Assembly: GCA_000004985.1 (NCBI GenBank)
Contig: GG739232.1
Length of the DNA: 36,293 nt
Strand: one strand, 5' to 3'
DNA from: Naegleria gruberi
Taxonomy: Eukaryota
Below are positions 653 through 34,576 of the stretch, piece by piece (position 1 is the stretch's first letter; each line of letters starts with the position of its first letter). The position numbers and the translations under genes were made by a program. Below the pieces are notes generated by a model. That model searched no databases. It saw nothing but the letters and a program-made list of their open reading frames with translations, and was not told the origin of the DNA.

Positions 653-674
653 TCAACAATTTATTGCTACACCA

Positions 675-703
675 GTGATCGGAATTTGAATGTGATCGGA
701 ATT
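675..703. repeat. Perfect 12-bp direct repeat gtgatcggaatt (675-686 and 692-703) separated by 5 nt, in the convergent 3' intergenic region
   Basis: Seen directly: 'aGTGATCGGAATTtgaatGTGATCGGAATTaaatt'. Confidence 0.6.
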
Positions 704-920
704 AAATTATTTTGCCCTAGATGATATTATTTCAACAACATACGCTTTGATGCAAAGAGACTGAAAGCTGGTCCCGCTGTGCCAAAACCAATCACAGCTA
801 TTTTCATTTTTTTAAAATTAATTTTGATGTGTAATCTGGAGTGGAAGTATTGACATTATGATAATATTATTGAACTTGGTTCAATGTTTAAATTTTGATT
901 GAATTACAATATAATAAAAT

Positions 921-1524: not shown

Positions 1525-4500
1525 NNNNNNNNNNNNNNNNNNNNNNNNNNNNNNNNNNNNNNNNNNNNNNNNNNNNNNNNNNNNNNNNNNNNNNNNNNNN
1601 NNNNNNNNNNNNNNNNNNNNNNNNNNNNNNNNNNNNNNNNNNNNNNNNNNNNNNNNNNNNNNNNNNNNNNNNNNNNNNNNNNNNNNNNNNNNNNNNNNNN
1701 NNNNNNNNNNNNNNNNNNNNNNNNNNNNNNNNNNNNNNNNNNNNNNNNNNNNNNNNNNNNNNNNNNNNNNNNNNNNNNNNNNNNNNNNNNNNNNNNNNNN
1801 NNNNNNNNNNNNNNNNNNNNNNNNNNNNNNNNNNNNNNNNNNNNNNNNNNNNNNNNNNNNNNNNNNNNNNNNNNNNNNNNNNNNNNNNNNNNNNNNNNNN
1901 NNNNNNNNNNNNNNNNNNNNNNNNNNNNNNNNNNNNNNNNNNNNNNNNNNNNNNNNNNNNNNNNNNNNNNNNNNNNNNNNNNNNNNNNNNNNNNNNNNNN
2001 NNNNNNNNNNNNNNNNNNNNNNNNNNNNNNNNNNNNNNNNNNNNNNNNNNNNNNNNNNNNNNNNNNNNNNNNNNNNNNNNNNNNNNNNNNNNNNNNNNNN
2101 NNNNNNNNNNNNNNNNNNNNNNNNNNNNNNNNNNNNNNNNNNNNNNNNNNNNNNNNNNNNNNNNNNNNNNNNNNNNNNNNNNNNNNNNNNNNNNNNNNNN
2201 NNNNNNNNNNNNNNNNNNNNNNNNNNNNNNNNNNNNNNNNNNNNNNNNNNNNNNNNNNNNNNNNNNNNNNNNNNNNNNNNNNNNNNNNNNNNNNNNNNNN
2301 NNNNNNNNNNNNNNNNNNNNNNNNNNNNNNNNNNNNNNNNNNNNNNNNNNNNNNNNNNNNNNNNNNNNNNNNNNNNNNNNNNNNNNNNNNNNNNNNNNNN
2401 NNNNNNNNNNNNNNNNNNNNNNNNNNNNNNNNNNNNNNNNNNNNNNNNNNNNNNNNNNNNNNNNNNNNNNNNNNNNNNNNNNNNNNNNNNNNNNNNNNNN
2501 NNNNNNNNNNNNNNNNNNNNNNNNNNNNNNNNNNNNNNNNNNNNNNNNNNNNNNNNNNNNNNNNNNNNNNNNNNNNNNNNNNNNNNNNNNNNNNNNNNNN
2601 NNNNNNNNNNNNNNNNNNNNNNNNNNNNNNNNNNNNNNNNNNNNNNNNNNNNNNNNNNNNNNNNNNNNNNNNNNNNNNNNNNNNNNNNNNNNNNNNNNNN
2701 NNNNNNNNNNNNNNNNNNNNNNNNNNNNNNNNNNNNNNNNNNNNNNNNNNNNNNNNNNNNNNNNNNNNNNNNNNNNNNNNNNNNNNNNNNNNNNNNNNNN
2801 NNNNNNNNNNNNNNNNNNNNNNNNNNNNNNNNNNNNNNNNNNNNNNNNNNNNNNNNNNNNNNNNNNNNNNNNNNNNNNNNNNNNNNNNNNNNNNNNNNNN
2901 NNNNNNNNNNNNNNNNNNNNNNNNNNNNNNNNNNNNNNNNNNNNNNNNNNNNNNNNNNNNNNNNNNNNNNNNNNNNNNNNNNNNNNNNNNNNNNNNNNNN
3001 NNNNNNNNNNNNNNNNNNNNNNNNNNNNNNNNNNNNNNNNNNNNNNNNNNNNNNNNNNNNNNNNNNNNNNNNNNNNNNNNNNNNNNNNNNNNNNNNNNNN
3101 NNNNNNNNNNNNNNNNNNNNNNNNNNNNNNNNNNNNNNNNNNNNNNNNNNNNNNNNNNNNNNNNNNNNNNNNNNNNNNNNNNNNNNNNNNNNNNNNNNNN
3201 NNNNNNNNNNNNNNNNNNNNNNNNNNNNNNNNNNNNNNNNNNNNNNNNNNNNNNNNNNNNNNNNNNNNNNNNNNNNNNNNNNNNNNNNNNNNNNNNNNNN
3301 NNNNNNNNNNNNNNNNNNNNNNNNNNNNNNNNNNNNNNNNNNNNNNNNNNNNNNNNNNNNNNNNNNNNNNNNNNNNNNNNNNNNNNNNNNNNNNNNNNNN
3401 NNNNNNNNNNNNNNNNNNNNNNNNNNNNNNNNNNNNNNNNNNNNNNNNNNNNNNNNNNNNNNNNNNNNNNNNNNNNNNNNNNNNNNNNNNNNNNNNNNNN
3501 NNNNNNNNNNNNNNNNNNNNNNNNNNNNNNNNNNNNNNNNNNNNNNNNNNNNNNNNNNNNNNNNNNNNNNNNNNNNNNNNNNNNNNNNNNNNNNNNNNNN
3601 NNNNNNNNNNNNNNNNNNNNNNNNNNNNNNNNNNNNNNNNNNNNNNNNNNNNNNNNNNNNNNNNNNNNNNNNNNNNNNNNNNNNNNNNNNNNNNNNNNNN
3701 NNNNNNNNNNNNNNNNNNNNNNNNNNNNNNNNNNNNNNNNNNNNNNNNNNNNNNNNNNNNNNNNNNNNNNNNNNNNNNNNNNNNNNNNNNNNNNNNNNNN
3801 NNNNNNNNNNNNNNNNNNNNNNNNNNNNNNNNNNNNNNNNNNNNNNNNNNNNNNNNNNNNNNNNNNNNNNNNNNNNNNNNNNNNNNNNNNNNNNNNNNNN
3901 NNNNNNNNNNNNNNNNNNNNNNNNNNNNNNNNNNNNNNNNNNNNNNNNNNNNNNNNNNNNNNNNNNNNNNNNNNNNNNNNNNNNNNNNNNNNNNNNNNNN
4001 NNNNNNNNNNNNNNNNNNNNNNNNNNNNNNNNNNNNNNNNNNNNNNNNNNNNNNNNNNNNNNNNNNNNNNNNNNNNNNNNNNNNNNNNNNNNNNNNNNNN
4101 NNNNNNNNNNNNNNNNNNNNNNNNNNNNNNNNNNNNNNNNNNNNNNNNNNNNNNNNNNNNNNNNNNNNNNNNNNNNNNNNNNNNNNNNNNNNNNNNNNNN
4201 NNNNNNNNNNNNNNNNNNNNNNNNNNNNNNNNNNNNNNNNNNNNNNNNNNNNNNNNNNNNNNNNNNNNNNNNNNNNNNNNNNNNNNNNNNNNNNNNNNNN
4301 NNNNNNNNNNNNNNNNNNNNNNNNNNNNNNNNNNNNNNNNNNNNNNNNNNNNNNNNNNNNNNNNNNNNNNNNNNNNNNNNNNNNNNNNNNNNNNNNNNNN
4401 NNNNNNNNNNNNNNNNNNNNNNNNNNNNNNNNNNNNNNNNNNNNNNNNNNNNNNNNNNNNNNNNNNNNNNNNNNNNNNNNNNNNNNNNNNNNNNNNNNNN

Positions 4501-7500
4501 NNNNNNNNNNNNNNNNNNNNNNNNNNNNNNNNNNNNNNNNNNNNNNNNNNNNNNNNNNNNNNNNNNNNNNNNNNNNNNNNNNNNNNNNNNNNNNNNNNNN
4601 NNNNNNNNNNNNNNNNNNNNNNNNNNNNNNNNNNNNNNNNNNNNNNNNNNNNNNNNNNNNNNNNNNNNNNNNNNNNNNNNNNNNNNNNNNNNNNNNNNNN
4701 NNNNNNNNNNNNNNNNNNNNNNNNNNNNNNNNNNNNNNNNNNNNNNNNNNNNNNNNNNNNNNNNNNNNNNNNNNNNNNNNNNNNNNNNNNNNNNNNNNNN
4801 NNNNNNNNNNNNNNNNNNNNNNNNNNNNNNNNNNNNNNNNNNNNNNNNNNNNNNNNNNNNNNNNNNNNNNNNNNNNNNNNNNNNNNNNNNNNNNNNNNNN
4901 NNNNNNNNNNNNNNNNNNNNNNNNNNNNNNNNNNNNNNNNNNNNNNNNNNNNNNNNNNNNNNNNNNNNNNNNNNNNNNNNNNNNNNNNNNNNNNNNNNNN
5001 NNNNNNNNNNNNNNNNNNNNNNNNNNNNNNNNNNNNNNNNNNNNNNNNNNNNNNNNNNNNNNNNNNNNNNNNNNNNNNNNNNNNNNNNNNNNNNNNNNNN
5101 NNNNNNNNNNNNNNNNNNNNNNNNNNNNNNNNNNNNNNNNNNNNNNNNNNNNNNNNNNNNNNNNNNNNNNNNNNNNNNNNNNNNNNNNNNNNNNNNNNNN
5201 NNNNNNNNNNNNNNNNNNNNNNNNNNNNNNNNNNNNNNNNNNNNNNNNNNNNNNNNNNNNNNNNNNNNNNNNNNNNNNNNNNNNNNNNNNNNNNNNNNNN
5301 NNNNNNNNNNNNNNNNNNNNNNNNNNNNNNNNNNNNNNNNNNNNNNNNNNNNNNNNNNNNNNNNNNNNNNNNNNNNNNNNNNNNNNNNNNNNNNNNNNNN
5401 NNNNNNNNNNNNNNNNNNNNNNNNNNNNNNNNNNNNNNNNNNNNNNNNNNNNNNNNNNNNNNNNNNNNNNNNNNNNNNNNNNNNNNNNNNNNNNNNNNNN
5501 NNNNNNNNNNNNNNNNNNNNNNNNNNNNNNNNNNNNNNNNNNNNNNNNNNNNNNNNNNNNNNNNNNNNNNNNNNNNNNNNNNNNNNNNNNNNNNNNNNNN
5601 NNNNNNNNNNNNNNNNNNNNNNNNNNNNNNNNNNNNNNNNNNNNNNNNNNNNNNNNNNNNNNNNNNNNNNNNNNNNNNNNNNNNNNNNNNNNNNNNNNNN
5701 NNNNNNNNNNNNNNNNNNNNNNNNNNNNNNNNNNNNNNNNNNNNNNNNNNNNNNNNNNNNNNNNNNNNNNNNNNNNNNNNNNNNNNNNNNNNNNNNNNNN
5801 NNNNNNNNNNNNNNNNNNNNNNNNNNNNNNNNNNNNNNNNNNNNNNNNNNNNNNNNNNNNNNNNNNNNNNNNNNNNNNNNNNNNNNNNNNNNNNNNNNNN
5901 NNNNNNNNNNNNNNNNNNNNNNNNNNNNNNNNNNNNNNNNNNNNNNNNNNNNNNNNNNNNNNNNNNNNNNNNNNNNNNNNNNNNNNNNNNNNNNNNNNNN
6001 NNNNNNNNNNNNNNNNNNNNNNNNNNNNNNNNNNNNNNNNNNNNNNNNNNNNNNNNNNNNNNNNNNNNNNNNNNNNNNNNNNNNNNNNNNNNNNNNNNNN
6101 NNNNNNNNNNNNNNNNNNNNNNNNNNNNNNNNNNNNNNNNNNNNNNNNNNNNNNNNNNNNNNNNNNNNNNNNNNNNNNNNNNNNNNNNNNNNNNNNNNNN
6201 NNNNNNNNNNNNNNNNNNNNNNNNNNNNNNNNNNNNNNNNNNNNNNNNNNNNNNNNNNNNNNNNNNNNNNNNNNNNNNNNNNNNNNNNNNNNNNNNNNNN
6301 NNNNNNNNNNNNNNNNNNNNNNNNNNNNNNNNNNNNNNNNNNNNNNNNNNNNNNNNNNNNNNNNNNNNNNNNNNNNNNNNNNNNNNNNNNNNNNNNNNNN
6401 NNNNNNNNNNNNNNNNNNNNNNNNNNNNNNNNNNNNNNNNNNNNNNNNNNNNNNNNNNNNNNNNNNNNNNNNNNNNNNNNNNNNNNNNNNNNNNNNNNNN
6501 NNNNNNNNNNNNNNNNNNNNNNNNNNNNNNNNNNNNNNNNNNNNNNNNNNNNNNNNNNNNNNNNNNNNNNNNNNNNNNNNNNNNNNNNNNNNNNNNNNNN
6601 NNNNNNNNNNNNNNNNNNNNNNNNNNNNNNNNNNNNNNNNNNNNNNNNNNNNNNNNNNNNNNNNNNNNNNNNNNNNNNNNNNNNNNNNNNNNNNNNNNNN
6701 NNNNNNNNNNNNNNNNNNNNNNNNNNNNNNNNNNNNNNNNNNNNNNNNNNNNNNNNNNNNNNNNNNNNNNNNNNNNNNNNNNNNNNNNNNNNNNNNNNNN
6801 NNNNNNNNNNNNNNNNNNNNNNNNNNNNNNNNNNNNNNNNNNNNNNNNNNNNNNNNNNNNNNNNNNNNNNNNNNNNNNNNNNNNNNNNNNNNNNNNNNNN
6901 NNNNNNNNNNNNNNNNNNNNNNNNNNNNNNNNNNNNNNNNNNNNNNNNNNNNNNNNNNNNNNNNNNNNNNNNNNNNNNNNNNNNNNNNNNNNNNNNNNNN
7001 NNNNNNNNNNNNNNNNNNNNNNNNNNNNNNNNNNNNNNNNNNNNNNNNNNNNNNNNNNNNNNNNNNNNNNNNNNNNNNNNNNNNNNNNNNNNNNNNNNNN
7101 NNNNNNNNNNNNNNNNNNNNNNNNNNNNNNNNNNNNNNNNNNNNNNNNNNNNNNNNNNNNNNNNNNNNNNNNNNNNNNNNNNNNNNNNNNNNNNNNNNNN
7201 NNNNNNNNNNNNNNNNNNNNNNNNNNNNNNNNNNNNNNNNNNNNNNNNNNNNNNNNNNNNNNNNNNNNNNNNNNNNNNNNNNNNNNNNNNNNNNNNNNNN
7301 NNNNNNNNNNNNNNNNNNNNNNNNNNNNNNNNNNNNNNNNNNNNNNNNNNNNNNNNNNNNNNNNNNNNNNNNNNNNNNNNNNNNNNNNNNNNNNNNNNNN
7401 NNNNNNNNNNNNNNNNNNNNNNNNNNNNNNNNNNNNNNNNNNNNNNNNNNNNNNNNNNNNNNNNNNNNNNNNNNNNNNNNNNNNNNNNNNNNNNNNNNNN

Positions 7501-10500
7501 NNNNNNNNNNNNNNNNNNNNNNNNNNNNNNNNNNNNNNNNNNNNNNNNNNNNNNNNNNNNNNNNNNNNNNNNNNNNNNNNNNNNNNNNNNNNNNNNNNNN
7601 NNNNNNNNNNNNNNNNNNNNNNNNNNNNNNNNNNNNNNNNNNNNNNNNNNNNNNNNNNNNNNNNNNNNNNNNNNNNNNNNNNNNNNNNNNNNNNNNNNNN
7701 NNNNNNNNNNNNNNNNNNNNNNNNNNNNNNNNNNNNNNNNNNNNNNNNNNNNNNNNNNNNNNNNNNNNNNNNNNNNNNNNNNNNNNNNNNNNNNNNNNNN
7801 NNNNNNNNNNNNNNNNNNNNNNNNNNNNNNNNNNNNNNNNNNNNNNNNNNNNNNNNNNNNNNNNNNNNNNNNNNNNNNNNNNNNNNNNNNNNNNNNNNNN
7901 NNNNNNNNNNNNNNNNNNNNNNNNNNNNNNNNNNNNNNNNNNNNNNNNNNNNNNNNNNNNNNNNNNNNNNNNNNNNNNNNNNNNNNNNNNNNNNNNNNNN
8001 NNNNNNNNNNNNNNNNNNNNNNNNNNNNNNNNNNNNNNNNNNNNNNNNNNNNNNNNNNNNNNNNNNNNNNNNNNNNNNNNNNNNNNNNNNNNNNNNNNNN
8101 NNNNNNNNNNNNNNNNNNNNNNNNNNNNNNNNNNNNNNNNNNNNNNNNNNNNNNNNNNNNNNNNNNNNNNNNNNNNNNNNNNNNNNNNNNNNNNNNNNNN
8201 NNNNNNNNNNNNNNNNNNNNNNNNNNNNNNNNNNNNNNNNNNNNNNNNNNNNNNNNNNNNNNNNNNNNNNNNNNNNNNNNNNNNNNNNNNNNNNNNNNNN
8301 NNNNNNNNNNNNNNNNNNNNNNNNNNNNNNNNNNNNNNNNNNNNNNNNNNNNNNNNNNNNNNNNNNNNNNNNNNNNNNNNNNNNNNNNNNNNNNNNNNNN
8401 NNNNNNNNNNNNNNNNNNNNNNNNNNNNNNNNNNNNNNNNNNNNNNNNNNNNNNNNNNNNNNNNNNNNNNNNNNNNNNNNNNNNNNNNNNNNNNNNNNNN
8501 NNNNNNNNNNNNNNNNNNNNNNNNNNNNNNNNNNNNNNNNNNNNNNNNNNNNNNNNNNNNNNNNNNNNNNNNNNNNNNNNNNNNNNNNNNNNNNNNNNNN
8601 NNNNNNNNNNNNNNNNNNNNNNNNNNNNNNNNNNNNNNNNNNNNNNNNNNNNNNNNNNNNNNNNNNNNNNNNNNNNNNNNNNNNNNNNNNNNNNNNNNNN
8701 NNNNNNNNNNNNNNNNNNNNNNNNNNNNNNNNNNNNNNNNNNNNNNNNNNNNNNNNNNNNNNNNNNNNNNNNNNNNNNNNNNNNNNNNNNNNNNNNNNNN
8801 NNNNNNNNNNNNNNNNNNNNNNNNNNNNNNNNNNNNNNNNNNNNNNNNNNNNNNNNNNNNNNNNNNNNNNNNNNNNNNNNNNNNNNNNNNNNNNNNNNNN
8901 NNNNNNNNNNNNNNNNNNNNNNNNNNNNNNNNNNNNNNNNNNNNNNNNNNNNNNNNNNNNNNNNNNNNNNNNNNNNNNNNNNNNNNNNNNNNNNNNNNNN
9001 NNNNNNNNNNNNNNNNNNNNNNNNNNNNNNNNNNNNNNNNNNNNNNNNNNNNNNNNNNNNNNNNNNNNNNNNNNNNNNNNNNNNNNNNNNNNNNNNNNNN
9101 NNNNNNNNNNNNNNNNNNNNNNNNNNNNNNNNNNNNNNNNNNNNNNNNNNNNNNNNNNNNNNNNNNNNNNNNNNNNNNNNNNNNNNNNNNNNNNNNNNNN
9201 NNNNNNNNNNNNNNNNNNNNNNNNNNNNNNNNNNNNNNNNNNNNNNNNNNNNNNNNNNNNNNNNNNNNNNNNNNNNNNNNNNNNNNNNNNNNNNNNNNNN
9301 NNNNNNNNNNNNNNNNNNNNNNNNNNNNNNNNNNNNNNNNNNNNNNNNNNNNNNNNNNNNNNNNNNNNNNNNNNNNNNNNNNNNNNNNNNNNNNNNNNNN
9401 NNNNNNNNNNNNNNNNNNNNNNNNNNNNNNNNNNNNNNNNNNNNNNNNNNNNNNNNNNNNNNNNNNNNNNNNNNNNNNNNNNNNNNNNNNNNNNNNNNNN
9501 NNNNNNNNNNNNNNNNNNNNNNNNNNNNNNNNNNNNNNNNNNNNNNNNNNNNNNNNNNNNNNNNNNNNNNNNNNNNNNNNNNNNNNNNNNNNNNNNNNNN
9601 NNNNNNNNNNNNNNNNNNNNNNNNNNNNNNNNNNNNNNNNNNNNNNNNNNNNNNNNNNNNNNNNNNNNNNNNNNNNNNNNNNNNNNNNNNNNNNNNNNNN
9701 NNNNNNNNNNNNNNNNNNNNNNNNNNNNNNNNNNNNNNNNNNNNNNNNNNNNNNNNNNNNNNNNNNNNNNNNNNNNNNNNNNNNNNNNNNNNNNNNNNNN
9801 NNNNNNNNNNNNNNNNNNNNNNNNNNNNNNNNNNNNNNNNNNNNNNNNNNNNNNNNNNNNNNNNNNNNNNNNNNNNNNNNNNNNNNNNNNNNNNNNNNNN
9901 NNNNNNNNNNNNNNNNNNNNNNNNNNNNNNNNNNNNNNNNNNNNNNNNNNNNNNNNNNNNNNNNNNNNNNNNNNNNNNNNNNNNNNNNNNNNNNNNNNNN
10001 NNNNNNNNNNNNNNNNNNNNNNNNNNNNNNNNNNNNNNNNNNNNNNNNNNNNNNNNNNNNNNNNNNNNNNNNNNNNNNNNNNNNNNNNNNNNNNNNNNNN
10101 NNNNNNNNNNNNNNNNNNNNNNNNNNNNNNNNNNNNNNNNNNNNNNNNNNNNNNNNNNNNNNNNNNNNNNNNNNNNNNNNNNNNNNNNNNNNNNNNNNNN
10201 NNNNNNNNNNNNNNNNNNNNNNNNNNNNNNNNNNNNNNNNNNNNNNNNNNNNNNNNNNNNNNNNNNNNNNNNNNNNNNNNNNNNNNNNNNNNNNNNNNNN
10301 NNNNNNNNNNNNNNNNNNNNNNNNNNNNNNNNNNNNNNNNNNNNNNNNNNNNNNNNNNNNNNNNNNNNNNNNNNNNNNNNNNNNNNNNNNNNNNNNNNNN
10401 NNNNNNNNNNNNNNNNNNNNNNNNNNNNNNNNNNNNNNNNNNNNNNNNNNNNNNNNNNNNNNNNNNNNNNNNNNNNNNNNNNNNNNNNNNNNNNNNNNNN

Positions 10501-13500
10501 NNNNNNNNNNNNNNNNNNNNNNNNNNNNNNNNNNNNNNNNNNNNNNNNNNNNNNNNNNNNNNNNNNNNNNNNNNNNNNNNNNNNNNNNNNNNNNNNNNNN
10601 NNNNNNNNNNNNNNNNNNNNNNNNNNNNNNNNNNNNNNNNNNNNNNNNNNNNNNNNNNNNNNNNNNNNNNNNNNNNNNNNNNNNNNNNNNNNNNNNNNNN
10701 NNNNNNNNNNNNNNNNNNNNNNNNNNNNNNNNNNNNNNNNNNNNNNNNNNNNNNNNNNNNNNNNNNNNNNNNNNNNNNNNNNNNNNNNNNNNNNNNNNNN
10801 NNNNNNNNNNNNNNNNNNNNNNNNNNNNNNNNNNNNNNNNNNNNNNNNNNNNNNNNNNNNNNNNNNNNNNNNNNNNNNNNNNNNNNNNNNNNNNNNNNNN
10901 NNNNNNNNNNNNNNNNNNNNNNNNNNNNNNNNNNNNNNNNNNNNNNNNNNNNNNNNNNNNNNNNNNNNNNNNNNNNNNNNNNNNNNNNNNNNNNNNNNNN
11001 NNNNNNNNNNNNNNNNNNNNNNNNNNNNNNNNNNNNNNNNNNNNNNNNNNNNNNNNNNNNNNNNNNNNNNNNNNNNNNNNNNNNNNNNNNNNNNNNNNNN
11101 NNNNNNNNNNNNNNNNNNNNNNNNNNNNNNNNNNNNNNNNNNNNNNNNNNNNNNNNNNNNNNNNNNNNNNNNNNNNNNNNNNNNNNNNNNNNNNNNNNNN
11201 NNNNNNNNNNNNNNNNNNNNNNNNNNNNNNNNNNNNNNNNNNNNNNNNNNNNNNNNNNNNNNNNNNNNNNNNNNNNNNNNNNNNNNNNNNNNNNNNNNNN
11301 NNNNNNNNNNNNNNNNNNNNNNNNNNNNNNNNNNNNNNNNNNNNNNNNNNNNNNNNNNNNNNNNNNNNNNNNNNNNNNNNNNNNNNNNNNNNNNNNNNNN
11401 NNNNNNNNNNNNNNNNNNNNNNNNNNNNNNNNNNNNNNNNNNNNNNNNNNNNNNNNNNNNNNNNNNNNNNNNNNNNNNNNNNNNNNNNNNNNNNNNNNNN
11501 NNNNNNNNNNNNNNNNNNNNNNNNNNNNNNNNNNNNNNNNNNNNNNNNNNNNNNNNNNNNNNNNNNNNNNNNNNNNNNNNNNNNNNNNNNNNNNNNNNNN
11601 NNNNNNNNNNNNNNNNNNNNNNNNNNNNNNNNNNNNNNNNNNNNNNNNNNNNNNNNNNNNNNNNNNNNNNNNNNNNNNNNNNNNNNNNNNNNNNNNNNNN
11701 NNNNNNNNNNNNNNNNNNNNNNNNNNNNNNNNNNNNNNNNNNNNNNNNNNNNNNNNNNNNNNNNNNNNNNNNNNNNNNNNNNNNNNNNNNNNNNNNNNNN
11801 NNNNNNNNNNNNNNNNNNNNNNNNNNNNNNNNNNNNNNNNNNNNNNNNNNNNNNNNNNNNNNNNNNNNNNNNNNNNNNNNNNNNNNNNNNNNNNNNNNNN
11901 NNNNNNNNNNNNNNNNNNNNNNNNNNNNNNNNNNNNNNNNNNNNNNNNNNNNNNNNNNNNNNNNNNNNNNNNNNNNNNNNNNNNNNNNNNNNNNNNNNNN
12001 NNNNNNNNNNNNNNNNNNNNNNNNNNNNNNNNNNNNNNNNNNNNNNNNNNNNNNNNNNNNNNNNNNNNNNNNNNNNNNNNNNNNNNNNNNNNNNNNNNNN
12101 NNNNNNNNNNNNNNNNNNNNNNNNNNNNNNNNNNNNNNNNNNNNNNNNNNNNNNNNNNNNNNNNNNNNNNNNNNNNNNNNNNNNNNNNNNNNNNNNNNNN
12201 NNNNNNNNNNNNNNNNNNNNNNNNNNNNNNNNNNNNNNNNNNNNNNNNNNNNNNNNNNNNNNNNNNNNNNNNNNNNNNNNNNNNNNNNNNNNNNNNNNNN
12301 NNNNNNNNNNNNNNNNNNNNNNNNNNNNNNNNNNNNNNNNNNNNNNNNNNNNNNNNNNNNNNNNNNNNNNNNNNNNNNNNNNNNNNNNNNNNNNNNNNNN
12401 NNNNNNNNNNNNNNNNNNNNNNNNNNNNNNNNNNNNNNNNNNNNNNNNNNNNNNNNNNNNNNNNNNNNNNNNNNNNNNNNNNNNNNNNNNNNNNNNNNNN
12501 NNNNNNNNNNNNNNNNNNNNNNNNNNNNNNNNNNNNNNNNNNNNNNNNNNNNNNNNNNNNNNNNNNNNNNNNNNNNNNNNNNNNNNNNNNNNNNNNNNNN
12601 NNNNNNNNNNNNNNNNNNNNNNNNNNNNNNNNNNNNNNNNNNNNNNNNNNNNNNNNNNNNNNNNNNNNNNNNNNNNNNNNNNNNNNNNNNNNNNNNNNNN
12701 NNNNNNNNNNNNNNNNNNNNNNNNNNNNNNNNNNNNNNNNNNNNNNNNNNNNNNNNNNNNNNNNNNNNNNNNNNNNNNNNNNNNNNNNNNNNNNNNNNNN
12801 NNNNNNNNNNNNNNNNNNNNNNNNNNNNNNNNNNNNNNNNNNNNNNNNNNNNNNNNNNNNNNNNNNNNNNNNNNNNNNNNNNNNNNNNNNNNNNNNNNNN
12901 NNNNNNNNNNNNNNNNNNNNNNNNNNNNNNNNNNNNNNNNNNNNNNNNNNNNNNNNNNNNNNNNNNNNNNNNNNNNNNNNNNNNNNNNNNNNNNNNNNNN
13001 NNNNNNNNNNNNNNNNNNNNNNNNNNNNNNNNNNNNNNNNNNNNNNNNNNNNNNNNNNNNNNNNNNNNNNNNNNNNNNNNNNNNNNNNNNNNNNNNNNNN
13101 NNNNNNNNNNNNNNNNNNNNNNNNNNNNNNNNNNNNNNNNNNNNNNNNNNNNNNNNNNNNNNNNNNNNNNNNNNNNNNNNNNNNNNNNNNNNNNNNNNNN
13201 NNNNNNNNNNNNNNNNNNNNNNNNNNNNNNNNNNNNNNNNNNNNNNNNNNNNNNNNNNNNNNNNNNNNNNNNNNNNNNNNNNNNNNNNNNNNNNNNNNNN
13301 NNNNNNNNNNNNNNNNNNNNNNNNNNNNNNNNNNNNNNNNNNNNNNNNNNNNNNNNNNNNNNNNNNNNNNNNNNNNNNNNNNNNNNNNNNNNNNNNNNNN
13401 NNNNNNNNNNNNNNNNNNNNNNNNNNNNNNNNNNNNNNNNNNNNNNNNNNNNNNNNNNNNNNNNNNNNNNNNNNNNNNNNNNNNNNNNNNNNNNNNNNNN

Positions 13501-25500: not shown

Positions 25501-28500
25501 NNNNNNNNNNNNNNNNNNNNNNNNNNNNNNNNNNNNNNNNNNNNNNNNNNNNNNNNNNNNNNNNNNNNNNNNNNNNNNNNNNNNNNNNNNNNNNNNNNNN
25601 NNNNNNNNNNNNNNNNNNNNNNNNNNNNNNNNNNNNNNNNNNNNNNNNNNNNNNNNNNNNNNNNNNNNNNNNNNNNNNNNNNNNNNNNNNNNNNNNNNNN
25701 NNNNNNNNNNNNNNNNNNNNNNNNNNNNNNNNNNNNNNNNNNNNNNNNNNNNNNNNNNNNNNNNNNNNNNNNNNNNNNNNNNNNNNNNNNNNNNNNNNNN
25801 NNNNNNNNNNNNNNNNNNNNNNNNNNNNNNNNNNNNNNNNNNNNNNNNNNNNNNNNNNNNNNNNNNNNNNNNNNNNNNNNNNNNNNNNNNNNNNNNNNNN
25901 NNNNNNNNNNNNNNNNNNNNNNNNNNNNNNNNNNNNNNNNNNNNNNNNNNNNNNNNNNNNNNNNNNNNNNNNNNNNNNNNNNNNNNNNNNNNNNNNNNNN
26001 NNNNNNNNNNNNNNNNNNNNNNNNNNNNNNNNNNNNNNNNNNNNNNNNNNNNNNNNNNNNNNNNNNNNNNNNNNNNNNNNNNNNNNNNNNNNNNNNNNNN
26101 NNNNNNNNNNNNNNNNNNNNNNNNNNNNNNNNNNNNNNNNNNNNNNNNNNNNNNNNNNNNNNNNNNNNNNNNNNNNNNNNNNNNNNNNNNNNNNNNNNNN
26201 NNNNNNNNNNNNNNNNNNNNNNNNNNNNNNNNNNNNNNNNNNNNNNNNNNNNNNNNNNNNNNNNNNNNNNNNNNNNNNNNNNNNNNNNNNNNNNNNNNNN
26301 NNNNNNNNNNNNNNNNNNNNNNNNNNNNNNNNNNNNNNNNNNNNNNNNNNNNNNNNNNNNNNNNNNNNNNNNNNNNNNNNNNNNNNNNNNNNNNNNNNNN
26401 NNNNNNNNNNNNNNNNNNNNNNNNNNNNNNNNNNNNNNNNNNNNNNNNNNNNNNNNNNNNNNNNNNNNNNNNNNNNNNNNNNNNNNNNNNNNNNNNNNNN
26501 NNNNNNNNNNNNNNNNNNNNNNNNNNNNNNNNNNNNNNNNNNNNNNNNNNNNNNNNNNNNNNNNNNNNNNNNNNNNNNNNNNNNNNNNNNNNNNNNNNNN
26601 NNNNNNNNNNNNNNNNNNNNNNNNNNNNNNNNNNNNNNNNNNNNNNNNNNNNNNNNNNNNNNNNNNNNNNNNNNNNNNNNNNNNNNNNNNNNNNNNNNNN
26701 NNNNNNNNNNNNNNNNNNNNNNNNNNNNNNNNNNNNNNNNNNNNNNNNNNNNNNNNNNNNNNNNNNNNNNNNNNNNNNNNNNNNNNNNNNNNNNNNNNNN
26801 NNNNNNNNNNNNNNNNNNNNNNNNNNNNNNNNNNNNNNNNNNNNNNNNNNNNNNNNNNNNNNNNNNNNNNNNNNNNNNNNNNNNNNNNNNNNNNNNNNNN
26901 NNNNNNNNNNNNNNNNNNNNNNNNNNNNNNNNNNNNNNNNNNNNNNNNNNNNNNNNNNNNNNNNNNNNNNNNNNNNNNNNNNNNNNNNNNNNNNNNNNNN
27001 NNNNNNNNNNNNNNNNNNNNNNNNNNNNNNNNNNNNNNNNNNNNNNNNNNNNNNNNNNNNNNNNNNNNNNNNNNNNNNNNNNNNNNNNNNNNNNNNNNNN
27101 NNNNNNNNNNNNNNNNNNNNNNNNNNNNNNNNNNNNNNNNNNNNNNNNNNNNNNNNNNNNNNNNNNNNNNNNNNNNNNNNNNNNNNNNNNNNNNNNNNNN
27201 NNNNNNNNNNNNNNNNNNNNNNNNNNNNNNNNNNNNNNNNNNNNNNNNNNNNNNNNNNNNNNNNNNNNNNNNNNNNNNNNNNNNNNNNNNNNNNNNNNNN
27301 NNNNNNNNNNNNNNNNNNNNNNNNNNNNNNNNNNNNNNNNNNNNNNNNNNNNNNNNNNNNNNNNNNNNNNNNNNNNNNNNNNNNNNNNNNNNNNNNNNNN
27401 NNNNNNNNNNNNNNNNNNNNNNNNNNNNNNNNNNNNNNNNNNNNNNNNNNNNNNNNNNNNNNNNNNNNNNNNNNNNNNNNNNNNNNNNNNNNNNNNNNNN
27501 NNNNNNNNNNNNNNNNNNNNNNNNNNNNNNNNNNNNNNNNNNNNNNNNNNNNNNNNNNNNNNNNNNNNNNNNNNNNNNNNNNNNNNNNNNNNNNNNNNNN
27601 NNNNNNNNNNNNNNNNNNNNNNNNNNNNNNNNNNNNNNNNNNNNNNNNNNNNNNNNNNNNNNNNNNNNNNNNNNNNNNNNNNNNNNNNNNNNNNNNNNNN
27701 NNNNNNNNNNNNNNNNNNNNNNNNNNNNNNNNNNNNNNNNNNNNNNNNNNNNNNNNNNNNNNNNNNNNNNNNNNNNNNNNNNNNNNNNNNNNNNNNNNNN
27801 NNNNNNNNNNNNNNNNNNNNNNNNNNNNNNNNNNNNNNNNNNNNNNNNNNNNNNNNNNNNNNNNNNNNNNNNNNNNNNNNNNNNNNNNNNNNNNNNNNNN
27901 NNNNNNNNNNNNNNNNNNNNNNNNNNNNNNNNNNNNNNNNNNNNNNNNNNNNNNNNNNNNNNNNNNNNNNNNNNNNNNNNNNNNNNNNNNNNNNNNNNNN
28001 NNNNNNNNNNNNNNNNNNNNNNNNNNNNNNNNNNNNNNNNNNNNNNNNNNNNNNNNNNNNNNNNNNNNNNNNNNNNNNNNNNNNNNNNNNNNNNNNNNNN
28101 NNNNNNNNNNNNNNNNNNNNNNNNNNNNNNNNNNNNNNNNNNNNNNNNNNNNNNNNNNNNNNNNNNNNNNNNNNNNNNNNNNNNNNNNNNNNNNNNNNNN
28201 NNNNNNNNNNNNNNNNNNNNNNNNNNNNNNNNNNNNNNNNNNNNNNNNNNNNNNNNNNNNNNNNNNNNNNNNNNNNNNNNNNNNNNNNNNNNNNNNNNNN
28301 NNNNNNNNNNNNNNNNNNNNNNNNNNNNNNNNNNNNNNNNNNNNNNNNNNNNNNNNNNNNNNNNNNNNNNNNNNNNNNNNNNNNNNNNNNNNNNNNNNNN
28401 NNNNNNNNNNNNNNNNNNNNNNNNNNNNNNNNNNNNNNNNNNNNNNNNNNNNNNNNNNNNNNNNNNNNNNNNNNNNNNNNNNNNNNNNNNNNNNNNNNNN

Positions 28501-31500
28501 NNNNNNNNNNNNNNNNNNNNNNNNNNNNNNNNNNNNNNNNNNNNNNNNNNNNNNNNNNNNNNNNNNNNNNNNNNNNNNNNNNNNNNNNNNNNNNNNNNNN
28601 NNNNNNNNNNNNNNNNNNNNNNNNNNNNNNNNNNNNNNNNNNNNNNNNNNNNNNNNNNNNNNNNNNNNNNNNNNNNNNNNNNNNNNNNNNNNNNNNNNNN
28701 NNNNNNNNNNNNNNNNNNNNNNNNNNNNNNNNNNNNNNNNNNNNNNNNNNNNNNNNNNNNNNNNNNNNNNNNNNNNNNNNNNNNNNNNNNNNNNNNNNNN
28801 NNNNNNNNNNNNNNNNNNNNNNNNNNNNNNNNNNNNNNNNNNNNNNNNNNNNNNNNNNNNNNNNNNNNNNNNNNNNNNNNNNNNNNNNNNNNNNNNNNNN
28901 NNNNNNNNNNNNNNNNNNNNNNNNNNNNNNNNNNNNNNNNNNNNNNNNNNNNNNNNNNNNNNNNNNNNNNNNNNNNNNNNNNNNNNNNNNNNNNNNNNNN
29001 NNNNNNNNNNNNNNNNNNNNNNNNNNNNNNNNNNNNNNNNNNNNNNNNNNNNNNNNNNNNNNNNNNNNNNNNNNNNNNNNNNNNNNNNNNNNNNNNNNNN
29101 NNNNNNNNNNNNNNNNNNNNNNNNNNNNNNNNNNNNNNNNNNNNNNNNNNNNNNNNNNNNNNNNNNNNNNNNNNNNNNNNNNNNNNNNNNNNNNNNNNNN
29201 NNNNNNNNNNNNNNNNNNNNNNNNNNNNNNNNNNNNNNNNNNNNNNNNNNNNNNNNNNNNNNNNNNNNNNNNNNNNNNNNNNNNNNNNNNNNNNNNNNNN
29301 NNNNNNNNNNNNNNNNNNNNNNNNNNNNNNNNNNNNNNNNNNNNNNNNNNNNNNNNNNNNNNNNNNNNNNNNNNNNNNNNNNNNNNNNNNNNNNNNNNNN
29401 NNNNNNNNNNNNNNNNNNNNNNNNNNNNNNNNNNNNNNNNNNNNNNNNNNNNNNNNNNNNNNNNNNNNNNNNNNNNNNNNNNNNNNNNNNNNNNNNNNNN
29501 NNNNNNNNNNNNNNNNNNNNNNNNNNNNNNNNNNNNNNNNNNNNNNNNNNNNNNNNNNNNNNNNNNNNNNNNNNNNNNNNNNNNNNNNNNNNNNNNNNNN
29601 NNNNNNNNNNNNNNNNNNNNNNNNNNNNNNNNNNNNNNNNNNNNNNNNNNNNNNNNNNNNNNNNNNNNNNNNNNNNNNNNNNNNNNNNNNNNNNNNNNNN
29701 NNNNNNNNNNNNNNNNNNNNNNNNNNNNNNNNNNNNNNNNNNNNNNNNNNNNNNNNNNNNNNNNNNNNNNNNNNNNNNNNNNNNNNNNNNNNNNNNNNNN
29801 NNNNNNNNNNNNNNNNNNNNNNNNNNNNNNNNNNNNNNNNNNNNNNNNNNNNNNNNNNNNNNNNNNNNNNNNNNNNNNNNNNNNNNNNNNNNNNNNNNNN
29901 NNNNNNNNNNNNNNNNNNNNNNNNNNNNNNNNNNNNNNNNNNNNNNNNNNNNNNNNNNNNNNNNNNNNNNNNNNNNNNNNNNNNNNNNNNNNNNNNNNNN
30001 NNNNNNNNNNNNNNNNNNNNNNNNNNNNNNNNNNNNNNNNNNNNNNNNNNNNNNNNNNNNNNNNNNNNNNNNNNNNNNNNNNNNNNNNNNNNNNNNNNNN
30101 NNNNNNNNNNNNNNNNNNNNNNNNNNNNNNNNNNNNNNNNNNNNNNNNNNNNNNNNNNNNNNNNNNNNNNNNNNNNNNNNNNNNNNNNNNNNNNNNNNNN
30201 NNNNNNNNNNNNNNNNNNNNNNNNNNNNNNNNNNNNNNNNNNNNNNNNNNNNNNNNNNNNNNNNNNNNNNNNNNNNNNNNNNNNNNNNNNNNNNNNNNNN
30301 NNNNNNNNNNNNNNNNNNNNNNNNNNNNNNNNNNNNNNNNNNNNNNNNNNNNNNNNNNNNNNNNNNNNNNNNNNNNNNNNNNNNNNNNNNNNNNNNNNNN
30401 NNNNNNNNNNNNNNNNNNNNNNNNNNNNNNNNNNNNNNNNNNNNNNNNNNNNNNNNNNNNNNNNNNNNNNNNNNNNNNNNNNNNNNNNNNNNNNNNNNNN
30501 NNNNNNNNNNNNNNNNNNNNNNNNNNNNNNNNNNNNNNNNNNNNNNNNNNNNNNNNNNNNNNNNNNNNNNNNNNNNNNNNNNNNNNNNNNNNNNNNNNNN
30601 NNNNNNNNNNNNNNNNNNNNNNNNNNNNNNNNNNNNNNNNNNNNNNNNNNNNNNNNNNNNNNNNNNNNNNNNNNNNNNNNNNNNNNNNNNNNNNNNNNNN
30701 NNNNNNNNNNNNNNNNNNNNNNNNNNNNNNNNNNNNNNNNNNNNNNNNNNNNNNNNNNNNNNNNNNNNNNNNNNNNNNNNNNNNNNNNNNNNNNNNNNNN
30801 NNNNNNNNNNNNNNNNNNNNNNNNNNNNNNNNNNNNNNNNNNNNNNNNNNNNNNNNNNNNNNNNNNNNNNNNNNNNNNNNNNNNNNNNNNNNNNNNNNNN
30901 NNNNNNNNNNNNNNNNNNNNNNNNNNNNNNNNNNNNNNNNNNNNNNNNNNNNNNNNNNNNNNNNNNNNNNNNNNNNNNNNNNNNNNNNNNNNNNNNNNNN
31001 NNNNNNNNNNNNNNNNNNNNNNNNNNNNNNNNNNNNNNNNNNNNNNNNNNNNNNNNNNNNNNNNNNNNNNNNNNNNNNNNNNNNNNNNNNNNNNNNNNNN
31101 NNNNNNNNNNNNNNNNNNNNNNNNNNNNNNNNNNNNNNNNNNNNNNNNNNNNNNNNNNNNNNNNNNNNNNNNNNNNNNNNNNNNNNNNNNNNNNNNNNNN
31201 NNNNNNNNNNNNNNNNNNNNNNNNNNNNNNNNNNNNNNNNNNNNNNNNNNNNNNNNNNNNNNNNNNNNNNNNNNNNNNNNNNNNNNNNNNNNNNNNNNNN
31301 NNNNNNNNNNNNNNNNNNNNNNNNNNNNNNNNNNNNNNNNNNNNNNNNNNNNNNNNNNNNNNNNNNNNNNNNNNNNNNNNNNNNNNNNNNNNNNNNNNNN
31401 NNNNNNNNNNNNNNNNNNNNNNNNNNNNNNNNNNNNNNNNNNNNNNNNNNNNNNNNNNNNNNNNNNNNNNNNNNNNNNNNNNNNNNNNNNNNNNNNNNNN

Positions 31501-34500
31501 NNNNNNNNNNNNNNNNNNNNNNNNNNNNNNNNNNNNNNNNNNNNNNNNNNNNNNNNNNNNNNNNNNNNNNNNNNNNNNNNNNNNNNNNNNNNNNNNNNNN
31601 NNNNNNNNNNNNNNNNNNNNNNNNNNNNNNNNNNNNNNNNNNNNNNNNNNNNNNNNNNNNNNNNNNNNNNNNNNNNNNNNNNNNNNNNNNNNNNNNNNNN
31701 NNNNNNNNNNNNNNNNNNNNNNNNNNNNNNNNNNNNNNNNNNNNNNNNNNNNNNNNNNNNNNNNNNNNNNNNNNNNNNNNNNNNNNNNNNNNNNNNNNNN
31801 NNNNNNNNNNNNNNNNNNNNNNNNNNNNNNNNNNNNNNNNNNNNNNNNNNNNNNNNNNNNNNNNNNNNNNNNNNNNNNNNNNNNNNNNNNNNNNNNNNNN
31901 NNNNNNNNNNNNNNNNNNNNNNNNNNNNNNNNNNNNNNNNNNNNNNNNNNNNNNNNNNNNNNNNNNNNNNNNNNNNNNNNNNNNNNNNNNNNNNNNNNNN
32001 NNNNNNNNNNNNNNNNNNNNNNNNNNNNNNNNNNNNNNNNNNNNNNNNNNNNNNNNNNNNNNNNNNNNNNNNNNNNNNNNNNNNNNNNNNNNNNNNNNNN
32101 NNNNNNNNNNNNNNNNNNNNNNNNNNNNNNNNNNNNNNNNNNNNNNNNNNNNNNNNNNNNNNNNNNNNNNNNNNNNNNNNNNNNNNNNNNNNNNNNNNNN
32201 NNNNNNNNNNNNNNNNNNNNNNNNNNNNNNNNNNNNNNNNNNNNNNNNNNNNNNNNNNNNNNNNNNNNNNNNNNNNNNNNNNNNNNNNNNNNNNNNNNNN
32301 NNNNNNNNNNNNNNNNNNNNNNNNNNNNNNNNNNNNNNNNNNNNNNNNNNNNNNNNNNNNNNNNNNNNNNNNNNNNNNNNNNNNNNNNNNNNNNNNNNNN
32401 NNNNNNNNNNNNNNNNNNNNNNNNNNNNNNNNNNNNNNNNNNNNNNNNNNNNNNNNNNNNNNNNNNNNNNNNNNNNNNNNNNNNNNNNNNNNNNNNNNNN
32501 NNNNNNNNNNNNNNNNNNNNNNNNNNNNNNNNNNNNNNNNNNNNNNNNNNNNNNNNNNNNNNNNNNNNNNNNNNNNNNNNNNNNNNNNNNNNNNNNNNNN
32601 NNNNNNNNNNNNNNNNNNNNNNNNNNNNNNNNNNNNNNNNNNNNNNNNNNNNNNNNNNNNNNNNNNNNNNNNNNNNNNNNNNNNNNNNNNNNNNNNNNNN
32701 NNNNNNNNNNNNNNNNNNNNNNNNNNNNNNNNNNNNNNNNNNNNNNNNNNNNNNNNNNNNNNNNNNNNNNNNNNNNNNNNNNNNNNNNNNNNNNNNNNNN
32801 NNNNNNNNNNNNNNNNNNNNNNNNNNNNNNNNNNNNNNNNNNNNNNNNNNNNNNNNNNNNNNNNNNNNNNNNNNNNNNNNNNNNNNNNNNNNNNNNNNNN
32901 NNNNNNNNNNNNNNNNNNNNNNNNNNNNNNNNNNNNNNNNNNNNNNNNNNNNNNNNNNNNNNNNNNNNNNNNNNNNNNNNNNNNNNNNNNNNNNNNNNNN
33001 NNNNNNNNNNNNNNNNNNNNNNNNNNNNNNNNNNNNNNNNNNNNNNNNNNNNNNNNNNNNNNNNNNNNNNNNNNNNNNNNNNNNNNNNNNNNNNNNNNNN
33101 NNNNNNNNNNNNNNNNNNNNNNNNNNNNNNNNNNNNNNNNNNNNNNNNNNNNNNNNNNNNNNNNNNNNNNNNNNNNNNNNNNNNNNNNNNNNNNNNNNNN
33201 NNNNNNNNNNNNNNNNNNNNNNNNNNNNNNNNNNNNNNNNNNNNNNNNNNNNNNNNNNNNNNNNNNNNNNNNNNNNNNNNNNNNNNNNNNNNNNNNNNNN
33301 NNNNNNNNNNNNNNNNNNNNNNNNNNNNNNNNNNNNNNNNNNNNNNNNNNNNNNNNNNNNNNNNNNNNNNNNNNNNNNNNNNNNNNNNNNNNNNNNNNNN
33401 NNNNNNNNNNNNNNNNNNNNNNNNNNNNNNNNNNNNNNNNNNNNNNNNNNNNNNNNNNNNNNNNNNNNNNNNNNNNNNNNNNNNNNNNNNNNNNNNNNNN
33501 NNNNNNNNNNNNNNNNNNNNNNNNNNNNNNNNNNNNNNNNNNNNNNNNNNNNNNNNNNNNNNNNNNNNNNNNNNNNNNNNNNNNNNNNNNNNNNNNNNNN
33601 NNNNNNNNNNNNNNNNNNNNNNNNNNNNNNNNNNNNNNNNNNNNNNNNNNNNNNNNNNNNNNNNNNNNNNNNNNNNNNNNNNNNNNNNNNNNNNNNNNNN
33701 NNNNNNNNNNNNNNNNNNNNNNNNNNNNNNNNNNNNNNNNNNNNNNNNNNNNNNNNNNNNNNNNNNNNNNNNNNNNNNNNNNNNNNNNNNNNNNNNNNNN
33801 NNNNNNNNNNNNNNNNNNNNNNNNNNNNNNNNNNNNNNNNNNNNNNNNNNNNNNNNNNNNNNNNNNNNNNNNNNNNNNNNNNNNNNNNNNNNNNNNNNNN
33901 NNNNNNNNNNNNNNNNNNNNNNNNNNNNNNNNNNNNNNNNNNNNNNNNNNNNNNNNNNNNNNNNNNNNNNNNNNNNNNNNNNNNNNNNNNNNNNNNNNNN
34001 NNNNNNNNNNNNNNNNNNNNNNNNNNNNNNNNNNNNNNNNNNNNNNNNNNNNNNNNNNNNNNNNNNNNNNNNNNNNNNNNNNNNNNNNNNNNNNNNNNNN
34101 NNNNNNNNNNNNNNNNNNNNNNNNNNNNNNNNNNNNNNNNNNNNNNNNNNNNNNNNNNNNNNNNNNNNNNNNNNNNNNNNNNNNNNNNNNNNNNNNNNNN
34201 NNNNNNNNNNNNNNNNNNNNNNNNNNNNNNNNNNNNNNNNNNNNNNNNNNNNNNNNNNNNNNNNNNNNNNNNNNNNNNNNNNNNNNNNNNNNNNNNNNNN
34301 NNNNNNNNNNNNNNNNNNNNNNNNNNNNNNNNNNNNNNNNNNNNNNNNNNNNNNNNNNNNNNNNNNNNNNNNNNNNNNNNNNNNNNNNNNNNNNNNNNNN
34401 NNNNNNNNNNNNNNNNNNNNNNNNNNNNNNNNNNNNNNNNNNNNNNNNNNNNNNNNNNNNNNNNNNNNNNNNNNNNNNNNNNNNNNNNNNNNNNNNNNNN

Positions 34501-34576
34501 NNNNNNNNNNNNNNNNNNNNNNNNNNNNNNNNNNNNNNNNNNNNNNNNNNNNNNNNNNNNNNNNNNNNNNNNNNNN
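1525..34576. other. Assembly gap or hard-masked block: 33,052 consecutive N
   Basis: Uninterrupted n run from 1525 to 34576. The non-round length suggests a size-estimated scaffold gap. Every track ORF spanning it is all X. Confidence 0.97.

What the first reader, a model, noticed from the sequence alone, without database searches (positions are those of the whole stretch)
1525..34576. 33 kb unresolved block dominates the window; no system can be asserted or excluded
33,052 N sit between two minus-strand genes that are both cut by the gap. Gaps of this size flanked by unique genic sequence usually hide tandem repeats, transposon clusters or segmental duplications that did not assemble. Any 'novel system' in this window would have to lie there and is invisible. 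The three giant ORFs (about 11,000 aa each) are pure artefacts.
Basis: seen in the sequence. Interest (0 to 1): 0.55.

Follow-up and report, generated by a model that had tools for sequence, protein, structure and literature searches.

The report
Scaffold gap in redundant Naegleria mini-scaffold
The 33-kb run of N is an ordinary sized assembly gap joining two tiny contigs of the 2010 Naegleria gruberi draft genome, and both contigs are near-identical copies of genes that lie ten gene models apart on a large, properly assembled scaffold, so the gap most likely hides nothing new.

Summary
Positions 1525-34576 are 33,052 N, the only ambiguous bases, and the three ~11,000-aa ORFs are runs of X.

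The window is an entire 36,293-bp scaffold of the Sanger draft genome of Naegleria gruberi NEG-M. It consists of a 1,524-bp contig and a 1,717-bp contig joined by a sized gap.

The flanks are not unique:
- The left gene (DUF1279/FAM210) is 100% identical to EFC49093.1.
- The right gene is 189/190 identical to EFC49103.1.
- Both of those lie on one 850,158-bp scaffold of the same assembly, with accessions exactly ten apart.
- Nine ordinary gene models therefore sit between them, a span broadly compatible with 33 kb.

The mini-scaffold therefore looks like a redundant or allelic leftover. It was probably bridged by a fosmid-size clone, since the total span is 36.3 kb. The missing sequence is probably already assembled elsewhere.

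The contig ends lie in plain coding sequence that reads straight through in the other copies, so a repeat did not cause the gap.

The Ns were already in the public record. The GenBank model EFC35446.1 splices the two unrelated genes across the gap with a 33-kb false intron. This is an artefact of low interest.

The parts
1525..34576 (.). Run of 33,052 N: a sized scaffold gap between two small contigs
   Evidence: only N run in the window. The public gene model EFC35446.1 is spliced across it.
921..1524 (-). 3' part (200 codons plus stop at 921-923) of a 288-aa DUF1279/FAM210-domain gene, cut by the gap. The first 88 codons are missing.
   Evidence: Pfam PF06916 E 4e-17. 100% identical over 200 aa to EFC49093.1 (P0003, 850,158-bp scaffold). 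Metagenome contig L001 is 100% identical to 883-1524 and continues 571 nt beyond the gap edge with an uninterrupted ORF.
34577..35419 (-). 5' part (281 codons from the ATG at 35419) of a gene of about 879 aa belonging to a Naegleria-specific family with no Pfam domain, cut by the gap
   Evidence: Residues 92-281 are 189/190 identical to residues 1-190 of EFC49103.1 (P0007, 788 aa, same 850,158-bp scaffold). Paralogues of 847-894 aa align from residues 1-8.
1481..34629 (-). False 'intron' of about 33,149 nt in GenBank model EFC35446.1/XP_002668190.1 (NAEGRDRAFT_76899). The model joins exon 35419..34630 (right gene) to exon 1480..921 (left gene), using a GT at 34629-34628 and an AG at 1482-1481.
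   Evidence: The two halves belong to separate complete proteins, EFC49103.1 and EFC49093.1.
2..628 (+). C-terminal Cys-rich tail (208 codons plus stop) of a DDE_1 (pogo/Tigger-type) transposase, cut by the scaffold start; a dispersed repeat
   Evidence: 52% identity over all 208 aa to P0012, which carries DDE_1 (PF03184, E 2e-23). A second copy, 79/80 identical, lies on a 362,555-bp N. gruberi scaffold inside model P0013.
35736..36293 (-). 186-codon open frame running off the scaffold end; unannotated, of uncertain coding status
   Evidence: No Pfam hit and no homologue.

Best explanation
The window is one complete small scaffold of the 2010 Sanger whole-genome-shotgun assembly of Naegleria gruberi NEG-M. 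It consists of two contigs, each only a few reads long (1,524 and 1,717 bp). The assembler linked them through paired ends of a long-insert clone and wrote the estimated distance as 33,052 N. The total span of 36,293 bp is what a fosmid insert would give. Both contigs are redundant copies of a locus that is already assembled on an 850,158-bp scaffold. They could be leftover reads, an allelic haplotype, or pieces that fall into small gaps. On that scaffold the DUF1279 gene (EFC49093.1) and the ~879-aa gene (EFC49103.1) lie ten gene models apart. So the gap corresponds to the rest of those two genes plus about nine ordinary protein-coding genes, not to unassemblable sequence. The gene caller, seeing only N, fused the two truncated genes into the chimeric model EFC35446.1. 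Shown: the N run, the organism, the duplication of both flanks on one scaffold, the chimera, and the non-repetitive contig ends. Inferred: that accession order reflects position, the fosmid bridge, and whether the copy is allelic or merely redundant.
For: -: the only hit to the right fragment is an N. gruberi protein on a contig of 36,293 bp, which equals the window length.
- that 449-aa model is 263 aa from the right flank plus 186 aa from the left flank, joined across the gap.
- the left fragment is 100% identical to the complete 288-aa EFC49093.1 on an 850,158-bp scaffold of the same assembly.
- the right fragment is 189/190 identical to EFC49103.1 on the same 850,158-bp scaffold.
- GenBank accessions and EukProt indices both differ by exactly 10. 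If the two contigs came from unrelated loci, copies within 10 models of each other would be expected about 20/16,620 = 0.1% of the time.
- mean spacing is 40.9 Mb / 16,620 genes = 2.46 kb per gene, so ten steps come to about 25 kb against 33.6 kb implied by the gap. That is the same order of size.
- the coding sequence continues without interruption past both gap edges in the other copies (...KTPE|DVVKNSN and ...NFAEA|SSTKKK).
- the contig ends have normal complexity, no tandem repeat sits at the edges, and the flanks share no sequence.
- (PMC9928731, Table 1): the NEG-M assembly is Sanger-based with 1,977 scaffolds and an N50 of 160 kb, so there are many small leftover scaffolds.
Against: - I could not retrieve the DNA of the 850-kb scaffold, so collinearity, orientation, the true distance and DNA-level identity remain untested.
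- That accession order reflects position is an inference.
- Ten average gene steps predict about 25 kb rather than 33 kb.
- The outer genes gave no match on the 850-kb scaffold: neither the transposase tail nor the 186-codon ORF.
- EFC49103.1 lacks the first 91 residues present here. So the copies may differ structurally at their outer ends, or the large scaffold may itself have a gap there.
- The use of fosmid libraries for this genome is recalled from the primary paper (Fritz-Laylin et al. 2010), which I could not open.
Confidence: 0.83

Rival explanations
1. A real, recent segmental duplication: the genome holds a second copy of this ~36-kb region, at least 99% identical. The assembler collapsed most of it into the 850-kb scaffold and left only the two end contigs and a clone link.
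For: The protein-level data are the same as for the main explanation. There is one amino-acid difference in the right gene (T138 vs I). A young transposon sits at the outer left end, and no annotated counterpart for it was found on the 850-kb scaffold.
Against: Nothing distinguishes this from an allelic or redundant copy. One difference in 390 aligned residues is also what heterozygosity or a low-coverage read error would give. Paralogues have I/L/V at that site, which favours an error or a minor allele. Transposon ORFs appear to be unannotated in this genome in general, so the missing counterpart is uninformative.
Confidence: 0.08
2. One reading: the gap exists because about 33 kb of tandem repeats, a transposon cluster or similar sequence could not be assembled.
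For: The outer left end of the scaffold is a dispersed DDE transposon, so repeats occur in the neighbourhood. EFC49103.1 is truncated at its N-terminus, which could mean a break in the large scaffold near there.
Against: Both inner contig ends lie in single-copy coding sequence that is read through in other copies. They have normal complexity and no tandem repeats. Nine gene models lie between the counterparts on the large scaffold. The genome is only about 5% repeats (PMC9928731).
Confidence: 0.05
3. The N run is a deliberate hard mask laid over known sequence, not a gap in the record.
For: The length is not a round number. One of the collections used by these tools is said to contain masked stretches.
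Against: The 2010 GenBank/RefSeq model EFC35446.1/XP_002668190.1 skips the whole interval. It splices 43 nt and 53 nt inside the edges, although the DUF1279 ORF continues directly beyond the left edge (L001). The same annotation called that ORF in full on the large scaffold. This makes sense only if the annotators also saw N. The contig length on record equals the window length. Non-round gap lengths are normal for clone-pair estimates.
Confidence: 0.03
4. A chimeric clone or a mis-join links two unrelated loci, so the gap has no physical meaning.
For: The scaffold rests on very little sequence, two contigs of about 1.6 kb, and so probably on very few clone links.
Against: The counterparts of the two contigs lie on the same 850-kb scaffold only ten gene models apart. 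That is expected by chance in about 0.1% of random pairs.
Confidence: 0.01

Closest known systems
Sized scaffold gap in a Sanger whole-genome-shotgun assembly (contigs linked by paired clone ends, distance written as N)
   Same: A single N run of non-round length, edges in ordinary sequence, a total span in the range of a fosmid insert, and a gap present in the public record and treated as an intron by the gene caller.
   Different: Nothing of substance. Unusually, the scaffold is almost entirely gap (91% N), and both of its contigs duplicate sequence assembled elsewhere.
Haplotig or redundant leftover contig in a draft assembly of a heterozygous diploid
   Same: (Near-)identical copies of both flank genes lie on a large scaffold of the same assembly, with one substitution in 390 aligned residues. 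N. gruberi is reported as heterozygous (PMC9928731, citing Fritz-Laylin 2010).
   Different: DNA-level divergence could not be measured here. The outer ends (transposon tail, the 91 N-terminal codons, the 186-codon ORF) have no detected counterpart on the large scaffold.
Chimeric gene models created across assembly gaps
   Same: EFC35446.1 fuses the N-terminus of one gene to the C-terminus of another through a 33-kb 'intron' made of N, using fortuitous GT/AG sites.
   Different: None; it is a textbook case.

Membership tests
True assembly (scaffold) gap | The N run is present in the public sequence record itself | tested here: met
   This is indirect but strong. The contig length on record is 36,293, equal to the window. 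The GenBank model EFC35446.1 is spliced across the interval and ignores the DUF1279 N-terminal ORF that lies directly beyond the left edge.
True assembly (scaffold) gap | Linkage evidence (paired clone ends) and a gap size derived from the insert length | not testable with these tools
   AGP and trace data are not available. The total span of 36,293 bp fits a fosmid insert, but the use of fosmids is recalled, not verified.
Hard mask of known sequence | Real bases exist at these coordinates in the source record | tested here: not met
   The structure of the public gene model implies that the annotators saw N.
Repeat-caused gap (tandem repeats / transposon cluster) | Contigs break at repeat boundaries or in low-complexity sequence | tested here: not met
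   The inner ends are coding sequence of normal 3-mer entropy with no tandem repeat. They are read through in P0003, L001 and P0007.
Repeat-caused gap (tandem repeats / transposon cluster) | The missing interval consists of repeats | tested here: inconclusive
   Nine gene models separate the counterparts on the 850-kb scaffold, which argues for ordinary genes. Their sequences could not be fetched.
Redundant / allelic copy of an assembled locus | Both flanks have near-identical counterparts close together on one other scaffold | tested here: met
   EFC49093.1 (100% over 200 aa) and EFC49103.1 (189/190) are both on the 850,158-bp scaffold, with accessions ten apart.
Redundant / allelic copy of an assembled locus | Collinear DNA alignment with the same orientation and spacing | not testable with these tools
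   The N. gruberi scaffold DNA is not in any searchable collection.
pogo/Tigger-type DDE_1 transposon (left end, 2-628) | DDE_1 catalytic domain | tested here: inconclusive
   The domain would lie upstream of the scaffold start. The 208-aa tail aligns end to end (52%) with the tail of P0012, which does carry DDE_1 (E 2e-23).
pogo/Tigger-type DDE_1 transposon (left end, 2-628) | Multiple dispersed copies | tested here: met
   A second copy, 79/80 aa identical, lies on a 362,555-bp scaffold.

The most novel reading that the evidence does not exclude
The mini-scaffold is a structurally distinct second haplotype, or a very recent 36-kb duplicate, of the locus on the 850-kb scaffold. It would differ by, for example, a heterozygous insertion of a young pogo-type transposon next to the DUF1279 gene, or a rearrangement upstream of the ~879-aa gene. 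That difference would explain why its reads were not merged. The nine genes in the interval (EFC49094-EFC49102) were not inspected here, so their content is not characterised.
Probability: 0.2. Interest if true: 0.12.

Novelty: not a real feature. Interest (0 to 1): 0.04.

Why it matters
It matters only as housekeeping:
- The window should be dropped from any search for novel systems. It holds 3.2 kb of real sequence, and that sequence is redundant with a larger scaffold.
- GenBank/RefSeq model EFC35446.1/XP_002668190.1 (NAEGRDRAFT_76899) is a chimera of two genes and should not be used as a protein.
- EFC49103.1 (NAEGRDRAFT_63085) probably lacks its first 91 residues, which this scaffold supplies.
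- P0013, a CobW/TPR model on a 362,555-bp N. gruberi scaffold, carries 80 residues of transposase tail at its C-terminus.

Tried and rejected
- I tried to fetch the DNA of the public scaffolds through exact-protein look-ups of P0001, P0003 and P0007. None is on record, so no DNA-level comparison with the 850-kb scaffold was possible.
- I looked for conserved gene neighbours in a related Naegleria species (L002 and L003, 75% aa identity). Its neighbours, a Complex1_LYR gene and a CS-domain gene, match nothing in the window or in L001, so synteny gave no information about the gap.
- I used the last word-indexed protein search on the concatenated outer fragments, hoping to find them as EFC49092 and EFC49104. 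Instead the left fragment turned out to be a transposase tail and the right fragment had no homologue.
- Pfam gave nothing for the right-flank gene family or for the 186-codon ORF. My first impression that the latter is a kinase tail is unsupported.
- tRNA and Rfam scans were empty.
- The primary genome paper and a review could not be opened. Literature searches for library details or a newer long-read N. gruberi assembly found nothing usable.
- The idea that both flanks belong to one giant gene was rejected. The two reading frames are out of register across 33,052 N (33,052 mod 3 = 1, and the frames differ), and each flank matches a separate complete protein.

Full report
**Observation.** The window holds one run of N, at 1525-34576, exactly 33,052 bases long, and no other ambiguous bases. 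The flanks are 1,524 and 1,717 bp, both about 33% G+C. The three ORFs of 11,034-11,301 aa listed across it are translations of N into X. Two minus-strand reading frames are open right up to the gap edges. One is 921..1524, which has 200 codons and a stop. The other is 34577..35419, which has 281 codons from an ATG. The description is therefore accurate.

**Source.** The 281-aa right fragment has a single word-indexed hit, P0001. This is a 'predicted protein [Naegleria gruberi]' whose contig length on record is 36,293 bp, the length of the window. The window is thus a complete scaffold of the NEG-M draft genome. That assembly is Sanger-based, with 40.9 Mb, 1,977 scaffolds, an N50 of 160 kb, 16,620 predicted genes and 5.1% repeats (PMC9928731 Table 1).

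**The public model is a chimera, and this shows the Ns are original.** P0001 (EFC35446.1 / XP_002668190.1, NAEGRDRAFT_76899) is 449 aa long. Its first 263 residues are the right-flank ORF and its last 186 are the left-flank ORF.
- The join uses a GT at 34629-34628 and an AG at 1482-1481, which gives an 'intron' of about 33,149 nt that contains the whole gap.
- Both ORFs in fact stay open for a further 17 and 14 codons up to the N edges.
- The left ORF continues directly beyond the edge in an independent contig (see below).
- The same annotation called the complete 288-aa protein on another scaffold.

The gene caller would only have produced this fusion if it saw N. So the run is a gap in the 2010 record, not a mask added later.

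**The left flank is not unique.** The 200-aa fragment carries a FAM210/DUF1279 domain (PF06916, E 4e-17). It is 100% identical to the C-terminal 200 residues of P0003 (EFC49093.1, 288 aa), which lies on an 850,158-bp scaffold of the same assembly. A metagenome contig (L001, ENA ERZ929261) is 100% identical to window 883-1524 and runs 571 nt further. That stretch covers the missing 88 codons without an intron, plus 308 nt upstream. These 571 nt are the best available proxy for the first part of the 'gap'.

**The right flank is not unique either.** An exhaustive HMMER search found P0007. This is EFC49103.1, NAEGRDRAFT_63085, 788 aa, on the same 850,158-bp scaffold.
- Its residues 1-190 equal window residues 92-281, with one substitution. 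The window has T138 (ACT at 35006-35008) where P0007 has I.
- P0007 continues for 598 residues past the gap edge (...NFAEA|SSTKKK...).
- Three N. gruberi paralogues of 847-894 aa align with the window ORF from residues 1-8.
- The true protein is therefore about 879 aa, and the public model on the large scaffold is probably 91 residues short.
- The family has no Pfam domain.

**What the gap corresponds to.** The GenBank accessions EFC49093 and EFC49103, and likewise the EukProt indices P013908 and P013918, differ by exactly ten. Accessions elsewhere fall in blocks by scaffold; for example EFC36721 and EFC36744 are both on a 174,974-bp scaffold. I therefore infer that nine gene models lie between the two genes.
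- At 2.46 kb per gene, ten steps come to about 25 kb. The distance implied in the window, from the inferred DUF1279 start at 1787 to the ATG at 35419, is 33.6 kb. The figures agree in order of magnitude. Gene sizes vary (the right gene alone is 2.6 kb), and clone-based gap estimates are loose.
- If the two contigs had been linked by a chimeric clone from unrelated loci, their counterparts would lie within ten models of each other only about 0.1% of the time.

The mini-scaffold is therefore a redundant, possibly allelic, representation of a locus that is assembled on the large scaffold. N. gruberi is described as heterozygous (PMC9928731). The gap stands for the rest of the two cut genes plus about nine ordinary genes.

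**Why there is a gap.** The inner contig ends have normal complexity. The 3-mer entropies are 4.87 and 5.14, against 5.03 +/- 0.23 for random pieces of the flanks. There is no tandem repeat at the edges, and the flanks share no sequence. Both ends lie in coding sequence that other copies read through. The contigs simply stop where their few reads stop. The sum 1,524 + 33,052 + 1,717 = 36,293 bp is what a fosmid insert would span. I recall that the project used fosmid end sequences, but I could not open the paper, so this step is inference.

**Other content.** Window 2-628 (+) is the Cys-rich C-terminal tail of a DDE_1 (pogo/Tigger-type) transposase.
- It is 52% identical over all 208 residues to P0012, which carries DDE_1 (E 2e-23).
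- A second copy, 79/80 identical, is fused to the end of a CobW/TPR gene model on a 362,555-bp scaffold (P0013). That is another chimeric model, and it shows the element is dispersed and young.
- L001 ends at window 883, 38 nt past the DUF1279 stop. This would fit a repeat boundary near there but proves nothing.

The 186-codon frame at 35736-36293 (-) has no Pfam hit and no homologue. No tRNA or Rfam family is present.

**Limits.** The DNA of the 850-kb scaffold could not be fetched. Orientation, exact spacing, DNA identity and the state of the outer ends on that scaffold remain untested. The outer ends are the transposon, the first 91 codons of the right gene and the 186-codon ORF, and none of them was detected among proteins of the large scaffold. 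These gaps in the evidence leave room for a structurally different haplotype or a recent segmental duplication. They give no support to an exotic hidden system.

**Verdict.** This is an assembly artefact: a sized scaffold gap in a redundant leftover scaffold. It is not a biological feature, and its interest is very low.

Noticed in passing
window 2-628 (+): The Cys-rich ORF is the C-terminal tail of a DDE_1 (pogo/Tigger-type) transposase, 52% identical to P0012 over all 208 aa. A copy 79/80 identical sits on a 362,555-bp N. gruberi scaffold, so the element is dispersed and apparently young. Transposase ORFs of this family seem to be unannotated in the NEG-M gene set.
   Followed up: partly
P0013 (N. 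gruberi protein on a 362,555-bp scaffold), residues 360-439: This CobW/TPR gene model ends with 80 residues of the transposase tail. It is probably another chimeric gene model, caused by a transposon insertion next to the gene.
   Followed up: partly
window 35147-35419 (-), compared with P0007 (EFC49103.1): The public model on the 850-kb scaffold starts at residue 92 of the ORF seen here. Paralogues P0008, P0010 and P0011 conserve the first 91 residues. So EFC49103.1 is probably N-terminally truncated, or the large scaffold has a break there, and the true protein is about 879 aa.
   Followed up: partly
window 35006-35008 (-): This is the only amino-acid difference from the large-scaffold copy: ACT (Thr) here against Ile in P0007. 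Paralogues have I/L/V at this site, which suggests a read error in a low-coverage contig or a minor allele.
   Followed up: partly
window 34577-35419 (-) and P0007, P0008, P0010, P0011: These form a Naegleria-specific family of ~850-900-aa proteins (about 26-34% identity among N. gruberi paralogues) with no Pfam domain. At least four copies lie on three scaffolds. The function is unknown.
   Followed up: no
window 35736-36293 (-): A 186-codon frame, Ser/Asn-rich and open to the scaffold end. It has no Pfam match and no homologue even within N. gruberi, so it is either an unannotated gene end or non-coding.
   Followed up: partly
L001 (ENA ERZ929261, 1,213 bp): A metagenome contig 100% identical to N. 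gruberi NEG-M over 642 nt. Its protein P0002 differs from EFC49093.1 by one residue, K25 in P0002 against M25 in EFC49093.1. N. gruberi or a very close strain is therefore present in that sample, or K25/M25 are the two NEG-M alleles.
   Followed up: no
window 660-700 (+): A short direct repeat, 'gtgatcggaatt', occurs twice 17 nt apart just after the transposase stop codon. It may be part of the element's 3' end.
   Followed up: no
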